Source: Giardia intestinalis (lineage: Eukaryota). Taken from it: 64,000 nt of DNA. The notes below the pieces were generated by a model. It searched no databases, was not told where the DNA came from, and saw only the letters and a list, made by a program, of their open reading frames with translations. A program made the position numbers and the translations under genes. Positions within the stretch are counted from its first letter, which is position 1; the number at the start of each line of letters is the position of its first letter. Positions 2,220-43,200 of this stretch are shown here, in pieces. The stretch lies in NCBI GenBank assembly GCA_000002435.2, contig CM018792.1; one strand, written 5' to 3'.

Positions 2220-2282
2220 ATTGCCCGGGTTGGTGAATGTGCTCTGGCCTTGGTCAAAAAATGTCCTTGCCAAGTCATAAAA

Positions 2283-4016
2283 ATGAAGACACTGGCTTTG
2301 CTTCTTTCTGCAGCAGCCTGGTCCATCCCCAGCACGCCCACTATTTACAAATGCAAGGCAACATTTAGGGCACCCTATGGCAATAACACGCAACACTTTG
2401 AGGTTGCTTTTGATCTGTCCCAGAATCGGGAGAGAACAAGCTTCTACAACAAAGATGGAACTTTAATAGATCAGGAAATTATCAACTATGACCACTACTA
2501 TAATATCCGCACGGAGCGTAACAGAACCGCTTGCTACAAGTCAACCCCGCCCTCTAATATGGCAAAGCCGGTTAGAACAGGTAACCCCCGTCCTCTATCC
2601 TATCTTGTTCCCACTCTCACCAATGATTGGGTCGACATGGGGACAGCCATTGTTAATGGCCGCTATGTTAACCACTACAGACTTAACGGAATCGATGAGG
2701 CTCAATCAGATCTTCACACGTACATCAGCACACGTGCCTTTCAGCAAGATTTTTACTGCTATAAGGACGAGTCGGTCTGCATTCCTGTAAGATGGACGAT
2801 GCGCTCGATTTCCGCATTTGGTTCTCACTTTGATCTTTATAGCCTTGACTACACTGCTTGCACAACAGAAGTCGAAGACTCTGATTTCGCAGAGCCGTTT
2901 ATCTGTAAGTTCATAGAGGATCCCGACTGGGATAACTGGGACAATGACCCAGACAACCCAGTCGGTCCTACATTTGAAGCCCTTAAACGTATTTTTGGCG
3001 GCAACACGCTTACTCGTCTTCTCTCAGCATTCTCTAGACAGAGTTCTCCCAAAGAACTTTCTAATGACCACGCGACTGCTTTGAAGGCGAACGTGGAACT
3101 CATAGCCAAAATCAATAGCAACAGCAGCTATACATTTACAGCAGCGCCAAACCATTTCAGCCATATTGACATACAGACAGCTCTATCGGCGTTAACTGGC
3201 TTCAGACGCACTAAGAGGAGGATTGAAAATGGCAGAAACTACATACAGAGCAGCAGTGGCGAATGGCATGACGTTCCTCTTTTTGACGCAGATCATCTGA
3301 AGAATGAAGACCTTCCACAGGAACTTGACTGGAGGGTTCGGGGTATCATGAACATGGCAAAGGATCAGGTGGCTTGTGGATCTTGTTGGACCTTCGGAGC
3401 CATTGGTACCATTGAGGGACGCATAAACAAGCTTCGTGTCGTTGAGGAGGGTCTGCGACACGAGCCTCTAAAGGCATACTCCGAGCAATCTATCGTAGAC
3501 TGCTACTGGGGATTTGGATCGTTCGGCTGTGATGGTGGGGACACCCTTGCAGCTCTCAAGTGGCTAGTCGAGAACAATGGAGGTCGAGTCGCATTCGAGT
3601 CGGAATATCCATACCTTGGGCAAAATGATCTATGCAAAGAGGCTCTCTTTGATCACGAATCGTTCTATTTCGTCACAGGTTATAGCGCAGTAAAGCAGTA
3701 TTCCATTCCAAGCCTCAAGGCAGCGCTCCAGGACGGACCTGTGGCAGTTTCTATTGGTATTACAGAGTCTCTGTTATTTTACTCTGGTGGTGTCTATAAC
3801 GATCCCGCGTGCCCATACAAGTACGACGACCTTTCACACGCCGTTCTTGCTGTTGGTTATGGGACAGACGACACTTACGGAGACTACTGGATCGTTCGGA
3901 ACAGCTGGTCGCCACTTTGGGGGATGGATGGCTACTTCTACCTTTCAATGAAGGACAACATCTGTGGAATCCTCACCGACGCCAGCTACGCGGTAGTTAA
4001 CAAAAGAAAAAGCTAA
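2283..4016 (+). CDS. Second cysteine peptidase, a tandem paralogue of the upstream gene with the same cathepsin-C-like architecture. The track start at 2250 is TTG; the ATG at 2283 gives the signal peptide MKTLALLLSAAAWS.
   Basis: QELDWRVRGIMNMAKDQVACGSCWTFGAIGTIEGR, HAVLAVGYGTDD and YWIVRNSWSPLWGMDGYFYL. Shares the N-terminal block QDFYC...W(E/T)M....GSHFDLYSLDY with the upstream paralogue. AGTAAAT lies 1 nt after the stop. Confidence 0.8.
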   Translation: MKTLALLLSAAAWSIPSTPTIYKCKATFRAPYGNNTQHFEVAFDLSQNRERTSFYNKDGTLIDQEIINYDHYYNIRTERNRTACYKSTPPSNMAKPVRTGNPRPLSYLVPTLTNDWVDMGTAIVNGRYVNHYRLNGIDEAQSDLHTYISTRAFQQDFYCYKDESVCIPVRWTMRSISAFGSHFDLYSLDYTACTTEVEDSDFAEPFICKFIEDPDWDNWDNDPDNPVGPTFEALKRIFGGNTLTRLLSAFSRQSSPKELSNDHATALKANVELIAKINSNSSYTFTAAPNHFSHIDIQTALSALTGFRRTKRRIENGRNYIQSSSGEWHDVPLFDADHLKNEDLPQELDWRVRGIMNMAKDQVACGSCWTFGAIGTIEGRINKLRVVEEGLRHEPLKAYSEQSIVDCYWGFGSFGCDGGDTLAALKWLVENNGGRVAFESEYPYLGQNDLCKEALFDHESFYFVTGYSAVKQYSIPSLKAALQDGPVAVSIGITESLLFYSGGVYNDPACPYKYDDLSHAVLAVGYGTDDTYGDYWIVRNSWSPLWGMDGYFYLSMKDNICGILTDASYAVVNKRKS

Positions 4017-4023
4017 AGTAAAT
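4017..4023 (+). terminator. AGTAAAT poly(A) signal of the second cysteine peptidase. The equivalent for the first peptidase is at 2215-2221, overlapping its stop.
   Basis: AGTRAAY immediately after the TAA. Confidence 0.6.
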
Positions 4024-4086
4024 TCTGTGGACGCTGTCTAATTAGTGCAATCAGGTGACTTGGTGGCGTGGTCTGAAACTTAAAAA

Positions 4087-4725
4087 ATGGCCAGTCCTAA
4101 TCACGAGTATCTCTTCAAGCTTTTGGTCATTGGAGACTCTGGAGTGGGCAAATCCGCTCTTCTTCTGCGCCTGTGTGATAAGATCTTTAATGCGTCGTAC
4201 ATTACGACGATAGGTGTAGACTTCAAGGTCAAATCGCTAAATATAAAGGACAACACTGTTAAATTACAAATATGGGACACGGCCGGCCAAGAGAAGTTCC
4301 GGACCATTACTTCTACGTACTACCGGGGGGCGCATGGGATCATGGTTGTCTACGATGTCACTTCTCGAGAATCATTTGACAATGTGAAGACATGGCTGAA
4401 GGAGATTGCAAACAACGCTAGCGATAACGTTGTAAAGTATATTATAGGTTCAAAGAAGGACCTTCGCGATAGTGCGGGTTCCATCAATGCTTCGCACGTC
4501 TCCACAGAAGAGGGGAGGAAATTCGCTGAAGAGCTGGGGATCTCTTTCATCGAAACGTCGTCCAAATCCGGAGAGAATGTTGAGCAGGCCTTTGTGGACT
4601 TGGCCGTTCGCATTATTGAGACCCAGGGCACGACTGCTCAAGGCGGCGGACGCGTTATAAACAATCCTGCAGTGGTATCTCTGTCCGACCCAGCAACTAA
4701 GAAGGACAGCAAGGGGTGCTGCTGA
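4087..4725 (+). CDS. RAB1: Rab1-family small GTPase
   Basis: G1 GDSGVGKS, effector region YITTIGVDF, G3 WDTAGQE, RabF YRGAHGIMVVYDVT, G4 GSKKD, and a C-terminal GCC prenylation motif. Close to Rab1 throughout. Confidence 0.9.
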   Translation: MASPNHEYLFKLLVIGDSGVGKSALLLRLCDKIFNASYITTIGVDFKVKSLNIKDNTVKLQIWDTAGQEKFRTITSTYYRGAHGIMVVYDVTSRESFDNVKTWLKEIANNASDNVVKYIIGSKKDLRDSAGSINASHVSTEEGRKFAEELGISFIETSSKSGENVEQAFVDLAVRIIETQGTTAQGGGRVINNPAVVSLSDPATKKDSKGCC

Positions 4726-4780
4726 TCTCTGACCTGTTTGTGCCTTGATAATATGGTGCCTCGAAATAAATTGTTCATTG

Positions 4781-5698
4781 ATGTTTGCATCGTTTGCGGT
4801 GAGCTTGGACGATGGAAGCAGCCTAAATGGCCCCGGGCTCTCCCTCTCCATGCGGCTGAAGCGAGCTGAGGGTAATCAGCTGAGAGTAGAGCTCGAATCC
4901 TCTGCCGCACTGACCTCTTGTGAATGCCGGATCAACGAGCCTGAAATGCGGCGTTTAACACACTCCATGCTACCAGAAATGTTAAACCCCAGTTCTGCTT
5001 CCATTGCAGGCTCACAACTTACGAGTTCAGCCTATTTTTCTCCAAAGCCTCTTCAGTTGCATGTGAGTAGGCCTTCTGCATACTCTGAGCCCCCAGAACA
5101 GACAGTTATCTCTCCGCCAATGATAGTGCAGCAGTCATCGTGCGAGCCGGAGCTGTCGTCGGTCTCAAAGCTTGCCGCAGTCTCATCAACTAATGAGCTA
5201 AGTAAGTGCTTCCAATCAGTGGCAAATTCAAGACTTCCACTACCGGGGCCACCTCCTTCGCAAAAGCAACAAGCACCCCCGCTCCTGTCGCCAACCTCCA
5301 GCAAGTCAAGTGAGTCAAGTGATGATACAAGCAATAGCATTAACAGCAGCACCTCCTCTGATATGAAATCACGTTCTCGCTCAGCTTCTCTTCCTCCGAC
5401 TGGACTTCAGGCAAACCCACAACCAGAACAACATCAAGCTTCTACCAACCGACAAGCTGCTGGAAGTGATACTAGTGATAGCGACGACAGTGATAATAAC
5501 ACTAGTAGCGCAGTTAGCGCATTGCTACAGAGGGCAGCCATGCCATATGCGGGTCCAAAGAAGCTGGATGTGAAGCAGGGCATTGATTTCAAGAAACAGC
5601 GCGAGAAGCTGTCTCAGGCATCCAGCTTGCCACTAGAGGCTTTGATGTCAGCAGATTTTATGAGTGCAGCCGTTTCCATGGCCAAGCAAAATACCTGA
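4781..5698 (+). CDS. Hypothetical Ser/Pro-rich low-complexity protein. The track start at 4745 is TTG; the first ATG is at 4781.
   Basis: A 305-codon open frame fills the gap between the Rab gene and the next gene. The composition is biased (S, P, Q, D runs) and I recognise no domain. Confidence 0.4.
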   Translation: MFASFAVSLDDGSSLNGPGLSLSMRLKRAEGNQLRVELESSAALTSCECRINEPEMRRLTHSMLPEMLNPSSASIAGSQLTSSAYFSPKPLQLHVSRPSAYSEPPEQTVISPPMIVQQSSCEPELSSVSKLAAVSSTNELSKCFQSVANSRLPLPGPPPSQKQQAPPLLSPTSSKSSESSDDTSNSINSSTSSDMKSRSRSASLPPTGLQANPQPEQHQASTNRQAAGSDTSDSDDSDNNTSSAVSALLQRAAMPYAGPKKLDVKQGIDFKKQREKLSQASSLPLEALMSADFMSAAVSMAKQNT

Positions 5699-5741
5699 GT
5701 TACTACTCAGCTTGCGAAGACTACGAACGTGCATATTTACT

Positions 5742-6131
5742 ATGAATAAAATTAAAATGATGGCAAACAATCCTGAGCTGGACATGTATGATAGCTGGTT
5801 TTTAAAGGTGGGAGACGCACCCATAGAGGCTCACAACATGGCTGATCTGTCCTTCACCCTTCAGCAGATAGCTGAGTTACTCAAAGACCGTACAACGGCT
5901 ATATCTCAGGGCTTTATCAATGGCACACAAAACTACAATATCTTCTATTACGACACTTGGGATAATAATAGACGGATAGTTACAGGACGATCTCATGATT
6001 TCAGTGTAGGCCTTTGCTTGGTGGAGGATCCGTCTCTCAATGCCATCTTTTTGGGACTGTTCGCATACCCTATTTTGGTAAGCGAGGCCACGCGCCAAGC
6101 TCTTCTTATTCTAGACCTGTGTGCTTCTTAA
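5742..6131 (+). CDS. Small hypothetical protein of 129 aa, possibly with a longin/roadblock-like small fold. The ATG at 5742 follows the stop of the upstream ORF.
   Basis: Open frame with a hydrophobic core IFYYDTWDNNRRIVTGRSHDFSVGLCLVEDPSLNAIFLGLFAYPIL. Its 3' end overlaps the convergent helicase gene by 21 nt. There is no clear family signature. Confidence 0.4.
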   Translation: MNKIKMMANNPELDMYDSWFLKVGDAPIEAHNMADLSFTLQQIAELLKDRTTAISQGFINGTQNYNIFYYDTWDNNRRIVTGRSHDFSVGLCLVEDPSLNAIFLGLFAYPILVSEATRQALLILDLCAS

Positions 6132-9100
6132 CTCAAAAACCATTGGTTCATTGAGCGACAACTCTGATAGATCTATTGTGATCTCTTTGTCCATTCCCAA
6201 GAAGCAATCGGACAATGCGCTGATGCAAAGAGAGGAGACGAACGGAATTATAAACTCCTGTGAGCGTTCTCTTGCAAACCCAGAGAGCCTTTTGTAGTCA
6301 ATCACTGTATCCGTCTCCGACTCAGATAGCACAAGGAACCATGTATGTGGCTTAGACTTCTTGTAGACTTCTGAGGAAAACTGCTGGGGAAACGGACTAG
6401 CTTGTATGCTGGATACGTGCTTGAGAGATATAATAACGCAAACAAACTTTCCAGTATGTTTAGACTTGTCTGGAATATTTGCTGGTCGGTTTATACGCGT
6501 TATCGTCGCTCTAATAATTAGATTAGGATATTTCATAAGCTCCTCACATAATTCTTTTCGCTGTATGCCTGAGAGTAGCTGATGTTTTCCTAGAAACTCA
6601 GTTAGCTGTTTCCTGCCCAGCTTGTGGAACTCGTCCACTAATTGTTGTAGTGTACTAATGCCGTTGGCACTTAACTTTTGAAATGTTTTCTTATTACTCT
6701 GCAGTGCATTACGCAATGAAGAAATAGAGAGCATAGGCTCCATGTTAGGCCACAGACCTTGCACAAGTCCCTGGGAAAGCTGCACCACTGTCTGTACAAT
6801 GCTGCGCGAGAGGCGCTTTGCTAACGCTATTTCTACGGTTGCAACCGTTATGCGGATTGCTGCATCAATGATGGTCACTAAGTCCAACCAGTAATCAACC
6901 ACTGGAAGCTCAAATGCTCCCTGCAACGATGAGCGCACAAGTTGTGCTTGAAGAAGAATGTGTGCTTTAAAGCTGGGCTCTGTGCATGTTATGTCGTCAG
7001 GCATGTTGTACCGTATTAGAGCACCAGAGAATTCTCGCTTGCCGTCCCAGAGATATTTTTGGAGAAGCAGAGCTGAATCCCGATCTTCGTTATGTCTAAT
7101 GGGTATTTCCTGGAACTCCTCGCACCGCACCAGCATGTCAAGATACGATTGCAGCGTGTGTGTCTCGCCTGTAAGCCAGGTATTAATAAGAGCTCCTGAT
7201 CTGGTACGGATATAATAGCGAGAGACAATCTCTCCTAATGGAGTCGGGACAGCCAGGATGTTTTTCACTTTGACATCAATATCCTGAAAATATAGACGTG
7301 TGGGTGTGTCCTGGGCCTTGGGAGGCTTTTTGTGTAGTGAAATGAACTTGTTATCTGACAGTTCAAGAAGAGCAGTTTCTATCCATGCATAGATTTCTTG
7401 CGTTATTATGAAGTCTCGCAAAGTTTTTCTATTTGCCAGCTTGATGAGATAAACTCCTGTTCTGCAGAATAGTTTAGAGTCACGGCGTGAGACAAGTCTG
7501 TGGTCATCAACTGAAGATATGCCTAGATATAGCCGGAAGGCGGCTTCCATCTCTTGTAGTTCTCTCGTGGGAGTGTAGCTTGTGTCCTCGAAGTCGGCCT
7601 TCTCTAGCATCTCCTGTAAGTTTTCTACTAGCGGATCTGGAAATATATTGTAGAACAGTGGATTGCGTCTGGCGCGAATGTATAGGAAGCTATTTTGGAG
7701 CCAATTTCGCAGTTCAAACATGGTTCTAGATCCAAAGGATGCCACTTCTGCATTGATTATATCAGGAAAGTGTGTTGTCTGGTGCTTAATGTTTGTTGCC
7801 TTTTTCTTCATCATAGCAGCTACAATAGGCGAGGTGTTTGTACAACTTATCATGGAGCTCTCGAAAGGAAAGGGCTCGGAGAAGAATTGCTTGTAGAACT
7901 CCTTCATACAAGTTTTGCAGAAGATGAAGCACACTGATTGAGGCTCACTTTGGAGTTGGAGCTCTATTCCGTTAATAACATCTCGCACAATGTCCTTGCC
8001 CATGTTCTGAATAGAAGGAGCCTGCTCTGTAAAACGCGTTAGTCCATCGACCACCGCTTCCTTGTTTGGAAATCGCCCTCCAGAGCTCATAATGTATGCC
8101 TGATCAATTATTTTATTACTCACGAGATAGTCGAAAGCATCCTCTCCAAATATTCCCGTTGCAAACTTGTCCCTAAGACGGTCGAGGGTATACTGGGGGC
8201 GTCCTGCACGTCCGGCCATTTGGATAATATCTGTCGTATCATAGTCAACATATCTACTGACAGTGCCGTCAAAGTACTCACAGCCCTTGATTATGGTCAT
8301 AAAGGCAGGAAGATTGAGTCCCCAAGCCAGAGTACTCGTCGCTACAAGAATGGATATTTTTCGGTTCAGGTACAGCTTTTCTACGGCGGTCCTGTCTGCG
8401 TGGGTCATCCCAGCATGGTGGAGACCAACCCCGTGGCCTATAGTAAGCTTACAGTCAGGGTCTTGCACAAAGCTCTGCAAGTACTCACAGTTAGACCCAT
8501 CAGAGCGCAGACACGGAGGCGCAGAGGAATCCATCTCTGCAAAGGAAATCAGTGCCATTGCAGTTCGTCTAGTTTGTCTGCGAGATGCCACAAATATCAA
8601 TACAGGAAGTCTGGGACTATACTTCTTAATGGCTGTATAGATCGGTCTGTTCATGGTGGTCATTCGCGGGGAGTAGTGCCAACCGGGGAAGCCTTGAATG
8701 TGCGTCTCAAGTTTCACGGGCCGTGCAGCACTGTTGAAATTAAAGATCCCGCTGATATCCTTTACGTTAAGCCAGCGTGCCAGGTCGCCGGTATTAGCAG
8801 AGACTGTCGAAAGAGCTATTATCCGTAGCTGAGATGGCTGGTCACTTACTCCACGATCCAGCGCTAATAGCTCCGACAAGTAGCGCATTCTGCAGATTAT
8901 GGACTCTAATACGTAGCCACGGGTTGTTCCCACAAGGTGTAGCTCGTCGAAGATCATGAGGCCAATCATTTGTATGTATTTTTTCCACTGCCACTGGCGT
9001 GAAATGGCATCAAACTTCTCTGGAGTTGCTAGTATAATATCGGCACGGTAAAGAGCCGAGGCAGCTGGTAGCGACTCGCCCGTGATCTCCATGACAGAGA

Positions 9101-12100
9101 GGTTCATGTCTTTACTGAAGCTTTCTGCCCAATCGTTATATCGTTCCCTGATGAGTGCCTTCATTGGTGCAATATAGACGATCTTTGGATACACCATTGT
9201 AGCTTCGTTAGATTTAGCCTGGTATCTGTCGCGAATGTGCTGCAAAATAGCTAGCTCAGAGCATGTTGTTTTTCCAGAGCCGGTAGGACACCCTATAATG
9301 ACATTTTCTGATGTATAAAACAGTTTGTGAAACATTACCGATTGTAATAGGTTGAAATAGCTAAATCGTCTTCGAAAGTATGACTCCGCCTCGGGCCAAT
9401 GCAAAGCTTTGATAGACAAGGGTGGAATCAGTGGTATTGGGGTGAAGGATAGATTGGTATCTGTATATAATACTGTTTTCGAGTCGTTAAGCTTGGGATA
9501 TACAACGCTGCCATCGTTGAAGACTTGATAAGACTCTTCAGTTGCAGTGAGCACAGGCTTCAATGAAACCTCTGTCCTTTGCCTGATTAAATGGCCTCCA
9601 AGCCAAAGCTCCGGAAATGTTACGACAACAAGCCTTGCTTCGAGCACCATGGCTTCAGTTGATTGAGTCGCTGTCGCTCTTGGCACGATATCAAGTTCGG
9701 CATTATCTTCTAGTTCTCGTGTATATTCGCTGTAGGACTTCACCTCCGTACCAGGTCGTCGCGGCCTCCAACTGCCAACCCTCAAAATCACAGTCGTTAT
9801 ATAGCCGCGAGAATAGGTCTGCTCCGTAAGCGTTACCCGCTCATAATGAACAGCGGAATTGGTAGTCTGACTATACACTATAACTAAGAAATCCATAGAC
9901 TCTCCGTGGATGGCCCTATTCCACCGAAAAGCCGCAGTGCATGATAGTGAAAGACGGAGAATGCGATTAGATACAGGGTAAAGAGAGGCTTTGGTAATCA
10001 GCCTGGGCACGAAGGCTATGCTCTCATGAAGCTTCTTCGCCTGGCTGCGGTCGTATATATATGTGGAGATATCATCAACGGTCATAGAGAAAAATGAGTT
10101 GGGAGATGGAAAGTCCTCTGCGTTCTTGTGATGTTCAAAGTCGATGATAAGTTTCTCCGTCAAAATTTCACCCACTCCTTGGCGCTTTCTAACTTCTAAT
10201 GTCACAAGGTAGTGATTCTTGATATGCTCCATTGATCCAACCGGTGAGCGAACAATTGGCCAAAATGGAAGAGACGTCTGGAACCAGCGCTGGTACTCAA
10301 TGCTGCTCGCCAGATCATACAGCTTAAGCGCCTCTGAAACCCTCTGAAGCACAAGTGAGGCCTCAGCAAAAGCACGTAGAATCCGAGGAGCGACTGTCAC
10401 ACAAAGGCGTTGGTCTGTTGCTAGACTCTGAACACGAAGCCTCCACTGGGAGATAAAGCTTTGAAGAATAACGTTAACCTTGTAGGGCGCACTGTCAATA
10501 TCCGCTGTATTCGTAATATTGAGTCTGCAGATGGCTTGTGAGTTGGATTGGCTTTGGAGAGAATCACGAAACTTCCGTAAATCTTTTTGTGAAAATGCCT
10601 CCGAAGCAGACACCTTGTTGCTGCGGCGGTCACTGGTTGTGTCGTTGGAATAGAAACCAAGGTATTCGAAGCTGTCCCCACTCAAGAGTGACAGCTCCTC
10701 CAGCTCTGACTTGCGCATAATGAACTTTGAAAAGTCTGAGCACTCACAAAGACATCCTAGGAGAGTGTCGTGAGTGACTCTTCCGACGACTGAATCCTTA
10801 ATGAGTGATATAAATCTGCAAAAGTTTCTGAAGGAGACGTAGTAATAGCTACAAATTCTTCCTATTTCAGTCGGAAATAGATGCTCGTTATCGGTATCAA
10901 GTGTTACGACTTTGTTGCTAGCCAAGTTGAGAATTGCGTTCATGACGCACTCCCTTAGAGTATGATCTAAGGATACAGATGTGAATAAGTTTCCATTGCC
11001 TCGTGAGTCTGACTTTGTGATCCTGGCGCCATAGAGCCATGGCATGTTGACCACACGAGTAGCTAGGAAGCTGCGTCGTAAAAGCGAAACACAGTCAGTT
11101 ACAGACGAGACGTTACCCAGGATTACTTCTGCATTGAGGATGTCCGGAAGAGCCTGCTGCATGTGGGATTCAATCGGTGACTCATTATTTAGCAGCCTCA
11201 CAAACGTGTCCAGCTTTTCTATATCGGTCAATATAATGCCATGGCCTACCTCTCCAGATGCCGTGTACTGGGGGCGCCCAGCACGTCCAAAGATCTGTTG
11301 GATATCTAGGACGTCTATATCTGTTGCCTTAGTTATCTGACCAGCGACCCCAGCAGAGAAAATATCTGTGCCTCGTATGATGACGGTGGAACATGGCATA
11401 TTGACACCCCAAGCGAGAGTAGCAGTGCAGCATACAACGCGGATCTTACTATCTCTGAAGAGTTGCTCAACAGTCTGCCTTTGGCTCTTTTCCATGCCTG
11501 CGTTGTGATAGGCAACTCCACAGCCAATAAGTTGGGACAAATCATCTTGCTTGCCACTGGAGATACTCCTCAGGATATTAGAAGAAATATCAGGCGTGGG
11601 AATGGCTCCCTGTTGAATCAGTGCGCGGAGCATATCCCCAATCAGTCTGGCAAGGATCTGTGTGCCCATGCGACTGTGGACAAACACAAGAACCTGATTC
11701 TGTCTTTGCAATAGCTGCTCCTTAACAAGAGAGACAGTAACAATGTCCATGACGTCGTGAGAGCTGTACCCCCGCATGTTGCTCATAGACCCTGAGGTTG
11801 AGGCTTGGGAATCTGTCCTCTTTGATAGCACATGAGTCATCTTGCTCTGGAACTTCTCCAGTATCTCATGCTCAGACTCAACTAGTCCCTTTACTACAGG
11901 GAAACAGTGTGGTCTGGAAACAGAACAGAAAGCACGCATTTGCTTTGAAAGTGGCTGGTTGTTAAGCTCGTCGGGTGCGTACTTTTGCATGTAATAATAG
12001 ACGTCTGAGAGTTGCAGAGGATCGCTGGGATCGGAACTGCTTTGAGTGGTCAGACGATTGAGTTTCTCCTGGTTGACTGTGAGCTGAGGCTTTATGCCAA

Positions 12101-13376
12101 TTATTGTCTGTGCCAGCGGAACTGGCCTATACTCTTGACCATAGTACAGAAGGCCTGCTGGGGGGACATGTAGAAACTCTGCCACATCCTTATAGTTAGG
12201 AATGGTCGCGGATATGCCGACAATACGCATGAATTTCTGAGTCGTTTCACTGTATTGAAGTGTGCGCATGATAATGGATTCAAGAACCGGTCCTCGCTCA
12301 GAAACGCCGAGCAAGTGAATCTCATCGATGATAAGTAGAGTTTGCCGTTGAATCAGGCTAACCTCTCCAACCGGTTTCCTGGTTAAGACGTCCCACTTTT
12401 CCGGCGTACAGATCAGCAAATTCGCCTCTAGTAACTTGGCTTGCGGCGGCGCCTCATCACCAGTACACTCTAGTACAGTCAATCCCAGCTTCTCCAGTTG
12501 CTCTGTAAATGTTGTAGTCATCTCAGACGCCAGGGCCTTCATGGGTGTTAGATAGACAACCAGTTGGGTACTCTTTGCAGAAGAGGGAGGGGTAGTGGTG
12601 GCCTGCTTTGGGATGACGGGTGCATTAGAAAACGTTATGATGTGCTGCGTAGGCTTGGGCTTATCGTCGCTCGGGAGGAGTAAGTCCGATGAGAAAGCAC
12701 GGAGCATGCAGAGCAAGGCACACACCGTTTTTCCTGCACCAGTAGGCGCACAAAGAAGGACATTGCAACTGTTATTGAAGAGAACCTCATAGCTTTCAGA
12801 CTGAATACGATTGAAGTGCGTTATTCGCTTGGGAAAAACCTTTTGATACTCTAGGGGCAGATCAGAGACAGGTCGCAGAGACGAAGTAGTGGAAGTAGAG
12901 AGCACGGGGACATGGGGTATATAAATGGTTTGTGTGATTGTAGACGGAATGGTTATAAGGGAGGAAAGGTGGGTAGCGTCCTCAAGATTCTCCTCGGAGA
13001 CATAAGGGTGAACATCTGATTGTTGAGAGGCTTGCTTTGACTTTATATTAATGGATATGCGATTGGGCAGAGTTTCTTGCTTGGCAGCCTGCGTCGAAAG
13101 AGCAGCTTGAGTGTCAGAACTAAGCTGTCCTAAGCTAGTACCTGGGCATAACAATGTAAACATCTCGACATAGTCCTCTCGGTTGCTAAGAATGTCATTG
13201 AATAAAGGGTCATCTAAGACACTGTATGACAATAATTCAAGCAGGCTGTTCTTGATCTCTTCATTGGAGCTGGGTGAGGCAAGGATCTGCATGACTGCTA
13301 GGAGCATCTCCTCGTCCGTGATTTGCATCCTTTGTGCATACGGGGAGAGAAGCTTCAGAAGAGTGTGAGACTCCAT
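6111..13376 (-). CDS. BRR2: Double-cassette Ski2-like DExH RNA helicase with Sec63 domains, Brr2 (U5 snRNP 200K) / ASCC3 family, 2421 aa
   Basis: Cassette 1 has LLCAPTGAGKT (Walker A), IIDEIHLLG (DEIH) and a Q-rich motif VI, FGRAGRPQYT. Cassette 2 has GCPTGSGKT, FDELHLVG and MAGRAGRPQYT. The N-terminal extension is about 470 aa. The ATG is at 13376 (minus strand). Confidence 0.85.
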   Translation of the reverse strand: MESHTLLKLLSPYAQRMQITDEEMLLAVMQILASPSSNEEIKNSLLELLSYSVLDDPLFNDILSNREDYVEMFTLLCPGTSLGQLSSDTQAALSTQAAKQETLPNRISINIKSKQASQQSDVHPYVSEENLEDATHLSSLITIPSTITQTIYIPHVPVLSTSTTSSLRPVSDLPLEYQKVFPKRITHFNRIQSESYEVLFNNSCNVLLCAPTGAGKTVCALLCMLRAFSSDLLLPSDDKPKPTQHIITFSNAPVIPKQATTTPPSSAKSTQLVVYLTPMKALASEMTTTFTEQLEKLGLTVLECTGDEAPPQAKLLEANLLICTPEKWDVLTRKPVGEVSLIQRQTLLIIDEIHLLGVSERGPVLESIIMRTLQYSETTQKFMRIVGISATIPNYKDVAEFLHVPPAGLLYYGQEYRPVPLAQTIIGIKPQLTVNQEKLNRLTTQSSSDPSDPLQLSDVYYYMQKYAPDELNNQPLSKQMRAFCSVSRPHCFPVVKGLVESEHEILEKFQSKMTHVLSKRTDSQASTSGSMSNMRGYSSHDVMDIVTVSLVKEQLLQRQNQVLVFVHSRMGTQILARLIGDMLRALIQQGAIPTPDISSNILRSISSGKQDDLSQLIGCGVAYHNAGMEKSQRQTVEQLFRDSKIRVVCCTATLAWGVNMPCSTVIIRGTDIFSAGVAGQITKATDIDVLDIQQIFGRAGRPQYTASGEVGHGIILTDIEKLDTFVRLLNNESPIESHMQQALPDILNAEVILGNVSSVTDCVSLLRRSFLATRVVNMPWLYGARITKSDSRGNGNLFTSVSLDHTLRECVMNAILNLASNKVVTLDTDNEHLFPTEIGRICSYYYVSFRNFCRFISLIKDSVVGRVTHDTLLGCLCECSDFSKFIMRKSELEELSLLSGDSFEYLGFYSNDTTSDRRSNKVSASEAFSQKDLRKFRDSLQSQSNSQAICRLNITNTADIDSAPYKVNVILQSFISQWRLRVQSLATDQRLCVTVAPRILRAFAEASLVLQRVSEALKLYDLASSIEYQRWFQTSLPFWPIVRSPVGSMEHIKNHYLVTLEVRKRQGVGEILTEKLIIDFEHHKNAEDFPSPNSFFSMTVDDISTYIYDRSQAKKLHESIAFVPRLITKASLYPVSNRILRLSLSCTAAFRWNRAIHGESMDFLVIVYSQTTNSAVHYERVTLTEQTYSRGYITTVILRVGSWRPRRPGTEVKSYSEYTRELEDNAELDIVPRATATQSTEAMVLEARLVVVTFPELWLGGHLIRQRTEVSLKPVLTATEESYQVFNDGSVVYPKLNDSKTVLYTDTNLSFTPIPLIPPLSIKALHWPEAESYFRRRFSYFNLLQSVMFHKLFYTSENVIIGCPTGSGKTTCSELAILQHIRDRYQAKSNEATMVYPKIVYIAPMKALIRERYNDWAESFSKDMNLSVMEITGESLPAASALYRADIILATPEKFDAISRQWQWKKYIQMIGLMIFDELHLVGTTRGYVLESIICRMRYLSELLALDRGVSDQPSQLRIIALSTVSANTGDLARWLNVKDISGIFNFNSAARPVKLETHIQGFPGWHYSPRMTTMNRPIYTAIKKYSPRLPVLIFVASRRQTRRTAMALISFAEMDSSAPPCLRSDGSNCEYLQSFVQDPDCKLTIGHGVGLHHAGMTHADRTAVEKLYLNRKISILVATSTLAWGLNLPAFMTIIKGCEYFDGTVSRYVDYDTTDIIQMAGRAGRPQYTLDRLRDKFATGIFGEDAFDYLVSNKIIDQAYIMSSGGRFPNKEAVVDGLTRFTEQAPSIQNMGKDIVRDVINGIELQLQSEPQSVCFIFCKTCMKEFYKQFFSEPFPFESSMISCTNTSPIVAAMMKKKATNIKHQTTHFPDIINAEVASFGSRTMFELRNWLQNSFLYIRARRNPLFYNIFPDPLVENLQEMLEKADFEDTSYTPTRELQEMEAAFRLYLGISSVDDHRLVSRRDSKLFCRTGVYLIKLANRKTLRDFIITQEIYAWIETALLELSDNKFISLHKKPPKAQDTPTRLYFQDIDVKVKNILAVPTPLGEIVSRYYIRTRSGALINTWLTGETHTLQSYLDMLVRCEEFQEIPIRHNEDRDSALLLQKYLWDGKREFSGALIRYNMPDDITCTEPSFKAHILLQAQLVRSSLQGAFELPVVDYWLDLVTIIDAAIRITVATVEIALAKRLSRSIVQTVVQLSQGLVQGLWPNMEPMLSISSLRNALQSNKKTFQKLSANGISTLQQLVDEFHKLGRKQLTEFLGKHQLLSGIQRKELCEELMKYPNLIIRATITRINRPANIPDKSKHTGKFVCVIISLKHVSSIQASPFPQQFSSEVYKKSKPHTWFLVLSESETDTVIDYKRLSGFARERSQEFIIPFVSSLCISALSDCFLGMDKEITIDLSELSLNEPMVFELRSTQV

Positions 13377-39423: not shown

Positions 39424-39443
39424 CCTAAAAATAAAAGCCAGCG
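39424..39443 (+). promoter_or_regulatory. AT-rich initiator upstream of G6PD-6PGL
   Basis: cctaaaaataaaagccagcg immediately 5' of the ATG. Confidence 0.45.
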
Positions 39444-41672
39444 ATGTTCAAGCCTTCCTGCGTCTTCGTCATCATGGGGGCATCAGGGGATCTTACTTAT
39501 AAGAAGCTTATCCCTGCCATCTACAGCCTTGCCTCGGACGGCTACCTTCACAAGGACACTTGCATCCTTGGCGTTGCACGCTCAGACATTAAGCTGGACG
39601 CCTTTCATAGTCGTATTAAGGACGGTATAGATAAGTATTCACGCCATGGGACAGGCCCTGGGTCTGCTACAAATCGAGAACCCTGGAGCACCTTTGTGAA
39701 GAGACTCAACTACCATCGCATAAACAACATGGAGGCACTGAGTGACTATAAGGCGCTAGCGGAGATTGTACTCTGTAAGGAGCCGTATAAGGACCTTGAG
39801 CGCGTTGTCATTTATCTTGCCCTCCCGCCTGGCGCTTTCTATGCCGCAGTCACCAACTTGGGGGAGTCGGGTCTCAATAACAGGAAGTGTACAATAGTAG
39901 TGGAGAAGCCCCTCGGGTCAGATCTCCACACAGCCATGGAACTCGAAAAGTTGCTCCACAGCCAGTTCAAAGAAGACCAGATAGCCCGCATTGACCATTA
40001 TCTGGGGAAGATGCAAGCACTCAATATGATGGGCTTCCGATTCTCCAACGCGTTTGTTGAGCCAATCTGGAATGACAAGTACATAGATCGCATCATCATC
40101 ACTGCCTCTGAGGAGATAGATGTTAATGGGCGGATCAGCTACTACGACGCCAACGGCATCATTATTGATATGGTTCAATCCCACCTTCTTCAGCTTCTTG
40201 CCCTTACGACCATGGAAGCCCCCATAGACATGACCGCAGATGGCATACGCAACGAAAAGGTGAAGCTTCTGAAGTCCGTTGACCCCATTCGTGTCGAGAA
40301 TGTCCTGACAGCCCAGTACGACGGGTACCTCAAACACGAGGGCGTTCCGGAGGGCTCTCTTGCTCCAACAGCTGTCTGTCTTAGGGTGTCCATCAACAAT
40401 GCACGCTGGAAAAGGACGCAGTTCATCATCCAGACATGCAAGTGTGGGGCTACGCGCGAGACCCGAATTGATGCTGTCATGCGTCCTTCGGGGTCGCGCA
40501 TTCTCAATACTGTTAGCATGGTTCCGGATCCTAACATTTTCTCGTTCCTCGTGCACCCCACCGAAGGGATTCAGATCAGTTTCGAAACCATGGTGCCATC
40601 AATATCTTCTTCCACTCTTGCGTGCGACAACAGTGGATGCATCGAACGGGAGCCGGGTCCGTTTTTGACCAAGCCCGTGACGCTGGACTTTGACTACCAG
40701 AAGTCGCATATCATCACCCAATCAGCATATGAGCGTCTGCTACAAGAGGCGGTTGCAGGGGATCTATCCAACTTTACACGTACTGATGAGGTAGTTGCCC
40801 AGTGGAAGATCGTAGCAAACATATTGGATAACAGCAGGAACAAGCCCATCATATACGCTAAGGGCCTTCGTCTTCTTCATCCCATCTGCCTCGACACTTG
40901 GAACTACGGAAAGGAGTACATACGTCGCTTAGCATACGGCCATTGCAGGTTGCGTGTTGCTTGGGAAATCACTGCCACGGCAATACTCGCGTGCGAGACC
41001 GTCAGTAATAAGGTCATTCACTCCGTCGCACTGTGGGCTGAGACCCACACGCTGAATAATAGCTTTGACATAATTCTCGCCGGTGGCACCACCCCCAAGC
41101 ATTGCTATGAACACATGAGCCGCCATCTGATCAAGCACTTACCACTGGAGGTGCGGAAGCGCATATTCATCTGGCTTTCAGATGAGCGTGAGGATACGTG
41201 TGCCAGGAACAACGGGAAAATGATCAAGGAGTGCTTTAAGGACAGCGGAGTTGTTATCAATGAAATCTATGATGGAAGCAAGAGCTTTGAGACCAGCATC
41301 CGAGAGTACTCAAAGAAACTCGAAGGAGTAGAGGTCTTTAGGGCAGCAATTCTGGGGATAGGCACAGATGGCCACATATGCTCACTCTTCCCAGGTTGTC
41401 TTCCCACTCTCACCAGCAGAGAAGATCAGTGCATCATGGTTGAAGTCCCTCAGCTGGGAGAGCGGCGAGCAACCATCACTCCTCTGGTCATACAAAGAAT
41501 TGCAGACGTTATCATCCTTGCCACTGGAGAAGATAAGACCACAGCATTGACTCGACTTGCCTACGCGCCTTTCCAGCCGGCCTTCATTCCTGCACAGTTG
41601 GCCACTGCACAGTCTAGCACAACTGTGGTCTGTGATCACACCGCGCGTTCATCTAGGCCAGTGTTCAATTAA
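39444..41672 (+). CDS. G6PD-6PGL: Bifunctional glucose-6-phosphate dehydrogenase :: 6-phosphogluconolactonase fusion, with G6PD N-terminal
   Basis: G6PD part: GASGDLTYKKLIPAIYSL (NADP site), RIDHYLGK (active-site motif) and EKPLGSD. 6PGL part: ILAGGTTPK, WLSDERED and LGIGTDGHICSLFPG. AT-rich initiator upstream. AGTAAAT lies 12 nt after the stop. Confidence 0.92.
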   Translation: MFKPSCVFVIMGASGDLTYKKLIPAIYSLASDGYLHKDTCILGVARSDIKLDAFHSRIKDGIDKYSRHGTGPGSATNREPWSTFVKRLNYHRINNMEALSDYKALAEIVLCKEPYKDLERVVIYLALPPGAFYAAVTNLGESGLNNRKCTIVVEKPLGSDLHTAMELEKLLHSQFKEDQIARIDHYLGKMQALNMMGFRFSNAFVEPIWNDKYIDRIIITASEEIDVNGRISYYDANGIIIDMVQSHLLQLLALTTMEAPIDMTADGIRNEKVKLLKSVDPIRVENVLTAQYDGYLKHEGVPEGSLAPTAVCLRVSINNARWKRTQFIIQTCKCGATRETRIDAVMRPSGSRILNTVSMVPDPNIFSFLVHPTEGIQISFETMVPSISSSTLACDNSGCIEREPGPFLTKPVTLDFDYQKSHIITQSAYERLLQEAVAGDLSNFTRTDEVVAQWKIVANILDNSRNKPIIYAKGLRLLHPICLDTWNYGKEYIRRLAYGHCRLRVAWEITATAILACETVSNKVIHSVALWAETHTLNNSFDIILAGGTTPKHCYEHMSRHLIKHLPLEVRKRIFIWLSDEREDTCARNNGKMIKECFKDSGVVINEIYDGSKSFETSIREYSKKLEGVEVFRAAILGIGTDGHICSLFPGCLPTLTSREDQCIMVEVPQLGERRATITPLVIQRIADVIILATGEDKTTALTRLAYAPFQPAFIPAQLATAQSSTTVVCDHTARSSRPVFN

Positions 41673-41683
41673 TGGCTCCACGC

Positions 41684-41690
41684 AGTAAAT
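41684..41690 (+). terminator. AGTAAAT poly(A) signal of G6PD-6PGL
   Basis: AGTRAAY, 12 nt after the TAA. Confidence 0.6.
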
Positions 41691-41775
41691 TGTGATAACA
41701 GACTTTTTTTATTGTCACCAGAAGTTGGTCTACAGGGGTTTGCGGCCCTGTAGTGTGAAAAATAAAACAGGAGCC

Positions 41776-43191
41776 ATGGACATTGGCATCGTGGGGCTGG
41801 GTGCAATGGGCAAAAACCTTGCGCTCAATTTCCACCGCAATAAGTTCAAGGTTGCTATCTACAACAGAACGCACTCGAAGGCGAAAGCTGTTGCCGATGA
41901 GCTCAAGTCAGAGAGCTTAAAAGCGTACGAGTCCGTCAGTGACTTTGTAGCCTCTTTGGTAAAGCCTCGTGTTATCGTCCTCCTCGTTCAGGCAGATGCT
42001 GTCGATTCTGTTGGGGAGATGATGGCTAAATGCATGCAGGAGGATGATATCATTATAGATTCAGGTAACTCTTACTACAAGCTCACAGAGGAGCGTAAGG
42101 TTCGCTTTCACAAGAACTTCAAAGTGCATTTTTACGGGATAGGCATTTCGGGCGGTGAAGAAGGCGCCCTCTGGGGGCCTGCGATAATGGTTGGCGGGGA
42201 CGAAGAGAGCGCAAGAAAGCGCCTCCTTCCACTTCTTGAGAAGGTCTGTGCAGACCCCCAGGTCGAGGGGACTGATGGAAAGAAATGCATATCTTATTGT
42301 GGGCCCGGAGGTGCTGGCCACATGGTGAAGATGGTGCACAATGGCTGCGAATACGGCATCATGCAACTTATTTCCGAGGCAATCGCCATCTTTCGCTCGG
42401 TCCTCAAGTTTTCCGTGGAACAGGTGGCCGATGTCTTTGCGTTGTATGCAAGGACCGAAGGCTGCTATCTGTTCGAAAATGTCGCCCAGATACTATACAA
42501 GAAGGAGGATGACAAGCCTCTTATTGACTTTGTCAAAGACGTGGCCATGCAGAAAGGGACTGGCCGTTGGACGTCTATCGAGGCGCTGAATCTAGGGGTA
42601 TGCGCGACGATCATTGATGCAGGCGTGGCTGCACGCACGTTCTCGAGCTCAAAGGACCGCTTTCTGATGCATGTCGAGGACTCCACCGCGTTGCTGAAGT
42701 CTGTCTTCACACAGGGTCTTTGTAAGGACGCTATCATGCGTTCTCTGCTGGCCGCTATGCTCCTTGCATTCCAACAGTCTATCTGCGTTATTCACGCCCT
42801 CTCCGAATCTATGCAATACAACACAAGCATCTTTGAGGCTCTTTGCTCCTGGCGCGGAGGCTGCATAATTCGCATGAATCTTCTTACACCGCTGGCGGAC
42901 TTCTACAAGCAGAACGCCAACAAGCGTGTACCGCTGATGCATGCAAGCTTTGTGAAGGAAAAGTACATCAATCGTGACGTTGTCTCCCAGCTCAGGTTGC
43001 TGGTCTCCTCTGCCGTGAAGGCTGGGCTGCCTATACCGGCTTTTTCGTCTGCTATGACATATCTCGACATGATCCAGACTGAGGTTCTGCCGACCAAGTA
43101 TATTCAGGGCATGAGGGATAACTTTGGAGCTCACACCTATGAAAGGATTGACAAGGAAGGTGTATTCCACTCTGTCTGGACTGAGAAATAA
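41776..43191 (+). CDS. GND: 6-phosphogluconate dehydrogenase (decarboxylating). The track start at 41692 is not ATG; the ATG is at 41776.
   Basis: N-terminal MDIGIVGLGAMGKNLALNF (Rossmann). Further motifs GISGGEEGA, HMVKMVHNGCEYGIMQLI and a C-terminal 6PGD domain. AGTGAAT lies 3 nt after the stop. Confidence 0.9.
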   Translation: MDIGIVGLGAMGKNLALNFHRNKFKVAIYNRTHSKAKAVADELKSESLKAYESVSDFVASLVKPRVIVLLVQADAVDSVGEMMAKCMQEDDIIIDSGNSYYKLTEERKVRFHKNFKVHFYGIGISGGEEGALWGPAIMVGGDEESARKRLLPLLEKVCADPQVEGTDGKKCISYCGPGGAGHMVKMVHNGCEYGIMQLISEAIAIFRSVLKFSVEQVADVFALYARTEGCYLFENVAQILYKKEDDKPLIDFVKDVAMQKGTGRWTSIEALNLGVCATIIDAGVAARTFSSSKDRFLMHVEDSTALLKSVFTQGLCKDAIMRSLLAAMLLAFQQSICVIHALSESMQYNTSIFEALCSWRGGCIIRMNLLTPLADFYKQNANKRVPLMHASFVKEKYINRDVVSQLRLLVSSAVKAGLPIPAFSSAMTYLDMIQTEVLPTKYIQGMRDNFGAHTYERIDKEGVFHSVWTEK

Positions 43192-43193
43192 GG

Positions 43194-43200
43194 AGTGAAT
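43194..43200 (+). terminator. AGTGAAT poly(A) signal of the 6PGDH gene
   Basis: Giardia AGTRAAY consensus, 3 nt after the TAA. Confidence 0.65.

What the first reader, a model, noticed from the sequence alone, without database searches (positions are those of the whole stretch)
39444..43191. All three oxidative pentose-phosphate steps encoded by two adjacent co-oriented genes
The G6PD::6PGL fusion (steps 1 and 2) is followed 103 nt downstream, on the same strand, by 6-phosphogluconate dehydrogenase (step 3). Each has its own AT-rich initiator and AGTRAAY signal. Pathway-level gene clustering is unusual in eukaryotes. Combined with the fusion, it could reflect co-regulation or a shared, possibly lateral, acquisition history.
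Basis: partly seen in the sequence, partly recalled or inferred. Interest (0 to 1): 0.55.

Follow-up and report, generated by a model that had tools for sequence, protein, structure and literature searches.

The report
Ancient two-gene pentose-phosphate cluster in Giardia

Summary
The window is Giardia intestinalis assemblage A (WB). A 742-aa G6PD::6PGL fusion (39444-41672) is followed 103 nt later, on the same strand, by 6-phosphogluconate dehydrogenase (41776-43191). Each gene has its own A-rich initiator and a positionally conserved AGTRAAY signal, so this is two mRNAs, not an operon.

The fusion is already published. Adjacency holds in every Giardia assemblage examined and in G. muris, but there it lies inside an ordinary five-gene syntenic block.

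The new result is that the closest relatives of the fusion are all metamonad fusions. In Histomonas (Parabasalia) and Skoliomonas sp. GEMRC (sister lineage of Fornicata), 6PGD again sits beside the fusion. There it is head-to-head, 62-68 nt apart, and no other neighbour is shared. One inversion of the fusion gene converts that arrangement into Giardia's.

The fused gene is monophyletic across Metamonada and mirrors the species tree. The four 6PGDs share a rare QG[LM]RD[CN]FGAH signature. Linkage is lost in Anaeramoeba, in an unidentified Giardia relative and apparently in Trichomonas.

A single co-transfer from a bacterial gnd/zwf/pgl operon is plausible but unproven. A recent Giardia-specific acquisition is contradicted.

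The parts
39427..39436 (+). A-rich initiator-like element AAAAATAAAA, 7 nt upstream of the fusion ATG
   Evidence: Sequence read. One of only two exact copies in the window. An AAAATAAA core is kept in other G. intestinalis-like lineages.
39444..41672 (+). G6PD::6PGL fusion gene (742 aa plus stop); catalyses oxidative PPP steps 1 and 2
   Evidence: Identical to XP_001704441.1 / GL50803_8682. Motifs GASGDL, EKPLG, RIDHYLGK and GIGTDGH are visible in the translation.
39468..40865 (+). G6PD module (G6PD_N aa 9-191 and G6PD_C aa 197-474)
   Evidence: Pfam PF00479 and PF02781. In neighbour-joining (NJ) trees it groups with the other metamonad fusions at 194/200 and 86/100 bootstraps.
41031..41624 (+). 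6-phosphogluconolactonase module (aa 530-727)
   Evidence: Pfam PF01182, E 1.4e-27.
41673..41775 (+). 103-nt intergenic spacer holding the 3' signal of gene 1 and the promoter of gene 2
41684..41690 (+). AGTAAAT, a polyadenylation-signal-type motif for the fusion mRNA
   Evidence: The equivalent AGTGAAT/AGTAAAT sits just after the stop in L001, L006 and both G. muris loci.
41730..41753 (.). Palindrome CTACAGGG-N8-CCCTGTAG, i.e. two inverted CWACAG (Myb2-type) motifs, 23-46 nt upstream of the 6PGD ATG
   Evidence: CWACAG is the verified Myb2 site and lies on average 41.5 bp upstream of the start codon in encystation-induced genes (PMC8700996). There is none within 200 nt upstream of the fusion ATG. 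This is a lead, not a demonstrated site.
41758..41767 (+). Second copy of AAAAATAAAA, 8 nt upstream of the 6PGD ATG
41776..43191 (+). 6-phosphogluconate dehydrogenase, decarboxylating (471 aa plus stop); oxidative PPP step 3
   Evidence: Identical to XP_001704443.1 / GL50803_14759. Motifs GLGAMGKN, GAGHMVKMVHNGCEYG, QKGTGRW and QGMRDNFGAH are visible.
43194..43200 (+). AGTGAAT, a polyadenylation-signal-type motif for the 6PGD mRNA

Best explanation
The pair is a relic of an old two-gene oxidative pentose-phosphate cluster that predates Giardia.

A fused G6PD::6PGL gene and a long-chain 6PGD gene were already neighbours in an early metamonad. That ancestor lived at least before Fornicata plus the barthelonid/skoliomonad (BaSk) clade split from Parabasalia. 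The two genes were inherited together. The older arrangement was probably head-to-head across a roughly 65-nt shared control region, as in Histomonas and Skoliomonas today.

In the Giardia lineage, an inversion of the fusion gene produced the present tandem order, fusion then 6PGD. Linkage was broken independently in some lineages, and both genes were lost in Hexamitinae.

In Giardia the genes work as two separate transcription units. Each has its own A-rich initiator a few nucleotides before the ATG and its own AGTRAAY signal just after the stop. Together they convert glucose-6-phosphate to ribulose-5-phosphate with two NADPH.

Shown: domain content, signals, adjacency and orientation in each genome, and monophyly of the fusion.

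Inferred: common ancestry of the adjacency, the inversion, separate mRNAs, and any selective benefit of co-location. The ultimate origin of the cluster as a piece of a bacterial gnd/zwf/pgl operon is possible; I put that at about one in three.
For: - **Closest relatives.** A full-sensitivity search of 1.84 billion representatives gave, after Giardia itself, four fused proteins. They come from Histomonas meleagridis, 'Eukaryota sp. GEM-RC1', Kipferlia bialata and Anaeramoeba ignava.
- **Identity of GEM-RC1.** It matches Skoliomonas sp. GEMRC, a member of the BaSk clade that is sister to Fornicata (PMC11316075).
- **Histomonas context.** 6PGD at 8544-9932 (-) is head-to-head with the fusion at 10001-12163 (+), 68 nt apart.
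- **GEM-RC1 context.** 6PGD at 8473-9938 (-, one 29-nt intron) is head-to-head with the fusion at 10001-12152 (+), 62 nt apart.
- **Specificity.** The fusion and 6PGD are the only homologues shared between the 64-kb window and these 22-kb loci, and between the two loci themselves.
- **G6PD tree.** NJ trees of the G6PD domain put all eight metamonad fusions in one clade (194/200; 86/100 after adding closer bacterial sequences). The internal order matches the species tree: Histomonas with Anaeramoeba, then GEMRC and Kipferlia outside the unknown relative, G. muris and G. intestinalis.
- **6PGD signature.** The near-invariant QAQRD[YF]FGAH motif reads QGLRDCFGAH in both Histomonas and GEMRC, QGMRDCFGAH in the unknown Giardia relative and QGMRDNFGAH in Giardia.
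- **6PGD tree.** Giardia plus GEMRC are recovered at 68-76%.
- **Giardia-internal conservation.** Accession numbers are consecutive or nearly so in WB, P15, GS, DH and BAH15c1. Loci L001, L002, L004 and L006-L009 all show the pair.
Against: - NJ does not recover 6PGD monophyly of all metamonads (25% support; Histomonas is unresolved, and only 15% with GEMRC when Giardia is removed).
- The trees are simple distance trees on long branches.
- The pair is not adjacent in Anaeramoeba within +-10 kb.
- It is not adjacent in the unidentified Giardia relative from run SRR31929897.
- In Trichomonas vaginalis, one published copy of each gene has distant positional locus tags, TVAGG3_0205560 and TVAGG3_0982660.
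- Kipferlia is uninformative because the contig ends 302 nt upstream of the gene.
- Only three linked lineages were seen, and orientation differs between them.
- I could not measure the background rate of shared neighbour pairs among these genomes.
Confidence: 0.62

Rival explanations
1. Convergent clustering. The two genes came together independently in Giardia, Skoliomonas and Histomonas because selection favours co-location of consecutive pathway genes, through shared chromatin or a shared promoter.
For: Orientation differs: tandem in Giardia, head-to-head in the other two. Several related lineages are unlinked. PPP genes have been joined repeatedly in evolution, with independent G6PD/6PGL fusions and a diatom G6PD::6PGD fusion (PMC3148214).
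Against: Three independent rearrangements, each with a chance of order 1e-4, are needed. A single inversion of one gene links the two arrangements. Histomonas and Skoliomonas have the same orientation and nearly the same spacing, 68 and 62 nt.
Confidence: 0.13
2. Cassette transfer between eukaryotes. The fusion plus 6PGD moved as a two-gene piece between metamonad lineages, so the linkage is shared but not vertically inherited.
For: The oxidative branch is patchy: it is absent from Spironucleus and Trepomonas (PMC7762791). The 6PGD tree is poorly resolved.
Against: The G6PD-domain topology follows the accepted species relationships, Parabasalia with Anaeramoebae and BaSk/Kipferlia outside the Giardia clade. 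The GEMRC 6PGD has acquired an intron and each gene has host-type signals, which suggests long residence.
Confidence: 0.1
3. Recent operon capture. The Giardiinae ancestor acquired a bacterial zwf-pgl-gnd operon by lateral transfer, and adjacency is its remnant. This is the reader's lateral option and matches the 'Giardiinae (LGT candidate)' call for EC 1.1.1.49, 3.1.1.31 and 1.1.1.44.
For: PMC7762791 Table S1 and text. Bacterial loci with exactly this order exist in Vibrio sinaloensis and Hyalangium. G. muris has a precedent of a two-gene transfer from Alistipes with gene order kept. Giardia G6PD scores 300-320 bits against bacteria and 200-220 against eukaryotic PDB chains.
Against: The nearest relatives of the fusion are other metamonad fusions, not bacteria, and Kipferlia has one too. 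The 6PGD signature is shared with Histomonas and Skoliomonas. Vibrio and Hyalangium are not close to Giardia in either tree.
Confidence: 0.05
4. Plain coincidence. The genes are chance neighbours in Giardia, held together only by ordinary local synteny, and the other two cases are unrelated coincidences.
For: Within Giardia the pair lies in a five-gene block conserved with G. muris. AGTRAAY and CWACAG occur at chance frequency window-wide.
Against: The joint chance of the same pair being neighbours in three genomes is of order 1e-11. No other gene is shared among the three neighbourhoods.
Confidence: 0.04

Closest known systems
G6PD::6PGL fusion of Giardia and Trichomonas (Stover et al. 2011, PMC3148214; biochemistry in Morales-Luna et al. 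2018, PMC6165198)
   Same: The first gene here is that fusion (GL50803_8682), with the same domain order, G6PD then 6PGL. Its G6PD part has bacterial affinities. My trees extend the clade to Histomonas, Skoliomonas, Kipferlia and Anaeramoeba.
   Different: That work treats the fusion alone. I found no mention of the neighbouring 6PGD or of gene order in it.
Bacterial pentose-phosphate operons (gnd-zwf-pgl in Bacteroidota, Planctomycetota and Acidobacteriota; zwf-pgl-gnd in Vibrio and Myxococcota; tkt-rpiB-gnd-zwf::pgl in Tunicatimonas)
   Same: The same three activities are encoded side by side. Both gene orders and even a true zwf::pgl fusion exist in bacteria. One metagenome contig has gnd head-to-head with zwf-pgl (L103).
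   Different: Giardia's genes carry separate eukaryote-type start and 3' signals. The bacterial fusion is not the closest relative. The bacterial G6PDs nearest to metamonads carry a short-chain (about 300 aa) gnd, not the long-chain type found here.
Lateral-transfer gene pairs with preserved bacterial order in Giardia muris (mannose-6-phosphate isomerase plus sugar kinase/regulator from Alistipes, PMC7641422)
   Same: Two adjacent metabolic genes, each with an A-rich initiator, interpreted as one transfer event.
   Different: That pair is recent, more than 70% identical to its donor and species-specific. The PPP pair is 35-45% identical to any bacterium, has no identified donor and is shared across metamonad lineages.
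Conserved head-to-head gene pairs with bidirectional promoters (e.g. PMC1487180)
   Same: In Histomonas and Skoliomonas the pair is divergent with 62-68 nt between start codons, the layout that typically gives co-expression and tends to be conserved.
   Different: Giardia itself has the tandem form. Promoter sharing has not been tested in any metamonad.
G6PD::6PGD fusion of the diatom Phaeodactylum tricornutum (PMC3148214)
   Same: Another case in which steps 1 and 3 of the oxidative branch became physically linked in a eukaryote.
   Different: There the linkage is a protein fusion of different partners in an unrelated lineage.

Membership tests
Glucose-6-phosphate dehydrogenase (PF00479 + PF02781) | N-terminal NADP-binding domain plus C-terminal domain, with GxxGDL, EKPxG and RIDHYLGK motifs | tested here: met
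   (159 and 225.6 bits, far above cut-offs). GASGDL, EKPLG and RIDHYLGK are read in the translation.
6-phosphogluconolactonase (PF01182) | Glucosamine_iso-fold domain with the GxGxDGH motif | tested here: met
   (97.4 bits, aa 530-727). GIGTDGH is present. Enzyme activity of the recombinant fusion is published (PMC6165198) and was not tested here.
Metamonad-type G6PD::6PGL fusion | Single ORF with order G6PD then 6PGL, grouping with other metamonad fusions rather than with bacterial or apicomplexan ones | tested here: met
   One uninterrupted ORF. Metamonad clade at 194/200 and 86/100 bootstraps. The bacterial Tunicatimonas fusion falls elsewhere.
Long-chain decarboxylating 6-phosphogluconate dehydrogenase (PF03446 + PF00393) | About 470 aa, Rossmann domain plus 6PGD C-terminal domain, with the QKGTGxW signature and catalytic K/E in GHxVKMVHNGxEY | tested here: met
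   (123 and 281 bits). Motifs visible. Best PDB match is Geobacillus 6PGDH at 337 bits (the organism is assigned to the entry from my memory).
Operon (polycistronic unit) | Both genes on one mRNA, with no internal 3'-end or promoter signals | not testable with these tools
   No RNA data were available. The sequence argues against it: a conserved AGTRAAY lies 12 nt after the first stop, and an A-rich initiator lies 8 nt before the second ATG.
Eukaryotic metabolic gene cluster | Non-homologous genes for consecutive steps of one pathway are adjacent | tested here: met
   Steps 1 and 2, then step 3, 103 nt apart.
Eukaryotic metabolic gene cluster | Linkage conserved beyond the surrounding synteny | tested here: met
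   The pair is adjacent in Histomonas and Skoliomonas GEMRC, with no other shared neighbour. Within Giardia it is not distinguishable from background synteny.
Eukaryotic metabolic gene cluster | Co-regulation of the members | tested here: inconclusive
   Literature only. Both genes are up in mid-encystation. Under drugs the fusion is induced by all five compounds, 6PGDH by two. The identical AAAAATAAAA lies at both promoters, but Myb2-type motifs occur only before 6PGD.
Operon remnant from a single lateral transfer | All parts branch with the same bacterial donor group | tested here: inconclusive
   G6PD sits next to an unnamed metagenomic clade and Anaerolineae/Planctomycetota (65/100 and weaker). 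The best 6PGL hits are Anaerolineae/Chloroflexota. 6PGD is unresolved, and the GEMRC 6PGD is most similar to Chloroflexi MAGs at 50-51%. There are hints of one donor phylum but no support.
Operon remnant from a single lateral transfer | The donor group has the same genes in the same arrangement | tested here: not met
   The nearest bacterial G6PD loci carry short-chain gnd upstream (L100, L114). A Chloroflexi long-chain gnd is not next to zwf. The order zwf-pgl-gnd was seen only in the unrelated Vibrio and Hyalangium.
Head-to-head pair with bidirectional promoter | Divergent orientation with a short shared upstream region | tested here: not met
   In Giardia the genes are in tandem. The feature is met in Histomonas (68 nt) and Skoliomonas GEMRC (62 nt).

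The most novel reading that the evidence does not exclude
The metamonad ancestor captured a bacterial gnd/zwf/pgl operon in one event. The ancestor fused zwf with pgl and kept 6PGD beside it, under a shared bidirectional promoter. This would make the pair one of the oldest conserved metabolic gene clusters known in eukaryotes, with Giardia's tandem pair a once-inverted descendant. As a corollary, the published inference that the Giardiinae ancestor newly gained the oxidative branch would be wrong: Hexamitinae lost it.
Probability: 0.25. Interest if true: 0.7.

Novelty: new member of a known kind. Interest (0 to 1): 0.55.

Why it matters
Gene order is almost never conserved between eukaryotes as distant as Giardia and parabasalids. 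A pathway-complete pair that stays linked is therefore a rare marker. It can help polarise metamonad relationships. It tests whether operon-like transfers seed eukaryotic gene clusters. It also shows that the oxidative pentose phosphate branch, the main NADPH source and a proposed drug target in Giardia and Trichomonas, is ancestral in metamonads rather than a late Giardia acquisition. Finally, it offers a simple system for asking whether neighbourhood itself matters for co-expression, because the same two genes occur head-to-head, in tandem and unlinked in related organisms.

Tried and rejected
- **6PGL-domain profile search** (Giardia-type profile). It was meant to pull out Trichomonas and other metamonad fusions. 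It returned only bacterial 6PGLs and used the last homology search.
- **JGI metagenome scan** with a metamonad fusion alignment. All 80 loci look bacterial and unfused. It added no new eukaryotic lineage but gave closer bacterial outgroups.
- **Context of a Chloroflexi long-chain gnd** close to the metamonad 6PGDs. There is no zwf nearby.
- **Partner-gene remnants** in the unidentified Giardia relative (tblastn at E 10), and orthology of its upstream 1038-aa gene with the window's 1030-aa gene. Nothing was found.
- **AGTRAAY and CWACAG enrichment.** Neither exceeds chance across the window. Only their position and conservation carry weight.
- **Trichomonas vaginalis gene context.** It could not be fetched. 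I relied on locus-tag numbers of one copy of each gene, although three fusion paralogues exist. A search for the neighbouring old locus tags found nothing.
- **Tunicatimonas zwf::pgl fusion as donor.** Rejected: it is only 31% identical to the Giardia fusion, its gnd only 35% to Giardia's 6PGD, and it clusters with Bacteroidota, away from metamonads.
- **Eukaryotic 6PGD references.** Only human, sheep and yeast sequences could be retrieved, through PDB alignments. Sampling of other eukaryotes is therefore thin.


Full report
**What is in the window.** The region holds two co-oriented genes.
- The first is ORF 39444-41672, 742 aa. It matches G6PD_N, G6PD_C and the 6-phosphogluconolactonase domain family in one reading frame.
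- The second has the NAD_binding_2 and 6PGD domains of long-chain 6-phosphogluconate dehydrogenase.
- Exact look-ups show both are the Giardia intestinalis WB (assemblage A) proteins XP_001704441.1 and XP_001704443.1. Published papers give their gene IDs as GL50803_8682 and GL50803_14759.
- The real start of the second gene is the ATG at 41776. The ORF tool's GTG start at 41692 reflects bacterial start rules.

**Signals.**
- AGTAAAT lies 12 nt after the first stop and AGTGAAT 3 nt after the second.
- The motif is not over-represented in the window as a whole (30 found, 33 expected). However, it recurs at the same position in every Giardia orthologue fetched, including G. muris.
- The exact 10-mer AAAAATAAAA occurs only twice in 64 kb, 7 and 8 nt before the two ATGs.
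- On sequence grounds these are two monocistronic units, not an operon. No RNA data were available to confirm this.

**Conservation inside Giardia.**
- Accession numbers of the two proteins are consecutive in the new WB assembly and in P15, GS, DH and BAH15c1.
- Contigs from other G. intestinalis-like lineages (L001, L006-L009) show the same tandem pair. So do two G. muris sources: L002 and L004, the latter from the reference chromosome CM016928.1.
- In G. muris the two upstream genes and the downstream cysteine-rich gene are also syntenic. The G. muris genome paper reports local synteny for 3,043 one-to-one orthologues.
- Conservation inside the genus therefore says little about selection.

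**Literature.**
- The fusion is well known (Stover et al. 2011; several enzymology papers).
- Stover et al. concluded that it is shared by Giardia and Trichomonas and that the G6PD part came from bacteria.
- Jiménez-González and Andersson 2020 score all three reactions as 'Giardiinae (LGT candidate)'. [quoted passage not shown]
- Maruyama et al. 2008 placed Giardia and Trichomonas gnd outside the eukaryotic clade with weak support.
- None of the papers I could search mentions that the two genes are neighbours.
- On expression, both genes rise together in mid-encystation. Under nitrothiazole drugs the fusion is induced by all five compounds and 6PGDH by only two.

**Beyond Giardia.**
- A full HMMER scan of 1.84 billion representatives ranked four fused proteins directly after the Giardia-type sequences (G. 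muris and the unidentified Giardia relative).
- These come from Histomonas meleagridis, 'Eukaryota sp. GEM-RC1', Kipferlia bialata and Anaeramoeba ignava.
- GEM-RC1 corresponds to Skoliomonas sp. GEMRC of the BaSk clade, sister to Fornicata.
- In Histomonas the 6PGD gene lies immediately beside the fusion on the opposite strand, with the start codons 68 nt apart.
- In GEMRC the layout is the same, with 62 nt between start codons and a 29-nt intron in 6PGD.
- No other gene is shared among the Giardia, Histomonas and GEMRC neighbourhoods.
- Inverting the fusion gene alone turns the head-to-head layout into Giardia's tandem layout.

**Where the pair is not linked.**
- In Anaeramoeba there is no 6PGD within 10 kb of the fusion.
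- In an unidentified organism from run SRR31929897 the fusion and 6PGD are the closest known relatives of Giardia's, at 43% and 47% identity. It uses the standard genetic code and has A-rich initiators. The two genes lie on different contigs, with other genes next to them and no remnants of the partner.
- In T. vaginalis, one published copy of each gene has distant positional locus tags.
- Kipferlia is uninformative because its contig ends 302 nt upstream of the gene.

**Are the linked genes orthologous?**
- For the G6PD domain, neighbour-joining trees (Kimura distances, bootstrapped) group all eight metamonad fusions. Support is 194/200, and 86/100 after adding the most similar bacterial sequences from a metagenome scan.
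- The internal branching mirrors the species tree. The Bacteroidota zwf::pgl fusion (Tunicatimonas type) falls elsewhere.
- For 6PGD the trees are weaker. Giardia plus the unknown relative is recovered at 100%. Adding GEMRC gives 68-76%. All metamonads together give only 25%. Human and yeast fall with gammaproteobacteria, away from the metamonads.
- A signature helps. The almost invariant QAQRD[YF]FGAH motif reads QGLRDCFGAH in both Histomonas and GEMRC, QGMRDCFGAH in the unknown relative and QGMRDNFGAH in Giardia.
- Giardia's 6PGD is simply very divergent. Histomonas 6PGD scores about 440-465 bits against bacterial, yeast and human enzymes, while Giardia's scores 274-337.

**Bacterial origin?**
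- Among 80 bacterial zwf loci, gnd is often adjacent. The usual order is gnd-zwf-pgl. The order zwf-pgl-gnd occurs in Vibrio and Hyalangium.
- One metagenome contig has gnd head-to-head with zwf-pgl (L103).
- The bacterial G6PDs closest to the metamonad clade are contigs L099, L100, L104, L113 and L114, then Anaerolineae and Planctomycetota. Where the upstream region is visible they carry a short-chain gnd, not the long-chain type.
- The best matches of the 6PGL domain are Anaerolineae/Chloroflexota proteins. GEMRC 6PGD is most similar to Chloroflexi MAG sequences. The one such gnd whose context I could read is not next to zwf.
- A single operon capture is therefore possible but unsupported. 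A recent capture by the Giardiinae ancestor is contradicted by the metamonad-wide clade and by the Kipferlia fusion.

**Verdict.**
The clustering is real and non-random, but its significance lies in an ancient metamonad linkage rather than in a Giardia-specific event.
- Co-regulation and co-transfer remain open.
- Main caveats are simple distance trees on long branches, only three linked lineages, indirect evidence for Trichomonas, and no measured background rate for shared gene pairs.

Noticed in passing
window 41730-41753: Perfect palindrome CTACAGGG-N8-CCCTGTAG gives two inverted copies of the Myb2 motif CWACAG, 23-46 nt upstream of the 6PGD ATG. That is the position typical of encystation-induced genes. 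The fusion promoter has none within 200 nt. A related lineage (L001) keeps CTACAG plus an inverted CAACAG. L006 and G. muris do not.
   Followed up: partly
window 39427-39436 and 41758-41767: The only two exact copies of AAAAATAAAA in the 64-kb window sit 7 and 8 nt upstream of the two PPP start codons. This may be a shared core-promoter type or chance among A-rich initiators.
   Followed up: partly
window 53265-64000: Tandem array of at least five head-to-tail genes of about 1.83 kb encoding variant-specific surface proteins (Pfam VSP). Each is followed by AGTGAAT at a regular spacing of about 1,830-1,856 nt, and the region shows strong positive GC skew.
   Followed up: partly
L094 (Kipferlia bialata BDIP01000514.1) 303-9360: Kipferlia has an intron-rich fused G6PD::6PGL gene (GIQ81848.1, partial). 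A published metabolic reconstruction nevertheless scores these reactions as absent there and infers a gain in Giardiinae.
   Followed up: partly
L010-L013 (Tunicatimonas-type Bacteroidota): These bacteria have a genuine single-ORF zwf::pgl fusion of 763 aa, the last gene of a tkt-rpiB-gnd-zwf::pgl cluster. It is an independent bacterial counterpart of the eukaryotic fusion.
   Followed up: partly
P0283, P0284 (Anaerolineae/Chloroflexota MAGs): The best database matches to the Giardia-type 6PGL domain are two-domain proteins joining 6PGL to ribulose-phosphate 3-epimerase (PF01182 + PF00834). This is another PPP fusion.
   Followed up: no
L003 and L005 (Logan run SRR31929897): An unidentified organism carries the closest known non-Giardia relatives of both genes (43% and 47% identity). 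It has the standard genetic code, A-rich initiators and AGTRAAY-like motifs. The two contigs have different GC content (0.50 and 0.61), and a 2.9-kb ORF-free stretch lies upstream of its 6PGD.
   Followed up: partly
L001 (Logan run ERR3333379): A Giardia lineage has PPP enzymes about 90% identical to WB, but its contig GC is only 0.42 and the upstream 1030-aa protein is only 55% identical. This shows how unevenly neighbouring genes diverge.
   Followed up: no
L103 (metagenome contig Ga0209284_10004386) 2940-6765: A low-GC (0.35), bacterial-looking contig has long-chain gnd on the minus strand, head-to-head with unfused zwf-pgl. This is the same layout as in Histomonas and Skoliomonas.
   Followed up: no
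window 39918-40561 and 42061-43170, minus strand: Long antisense ORFs overlap both genes, and their translations even hit the orthologous loci. They are shadows of the conserved sense frames, not genes.
   Followed up: yes
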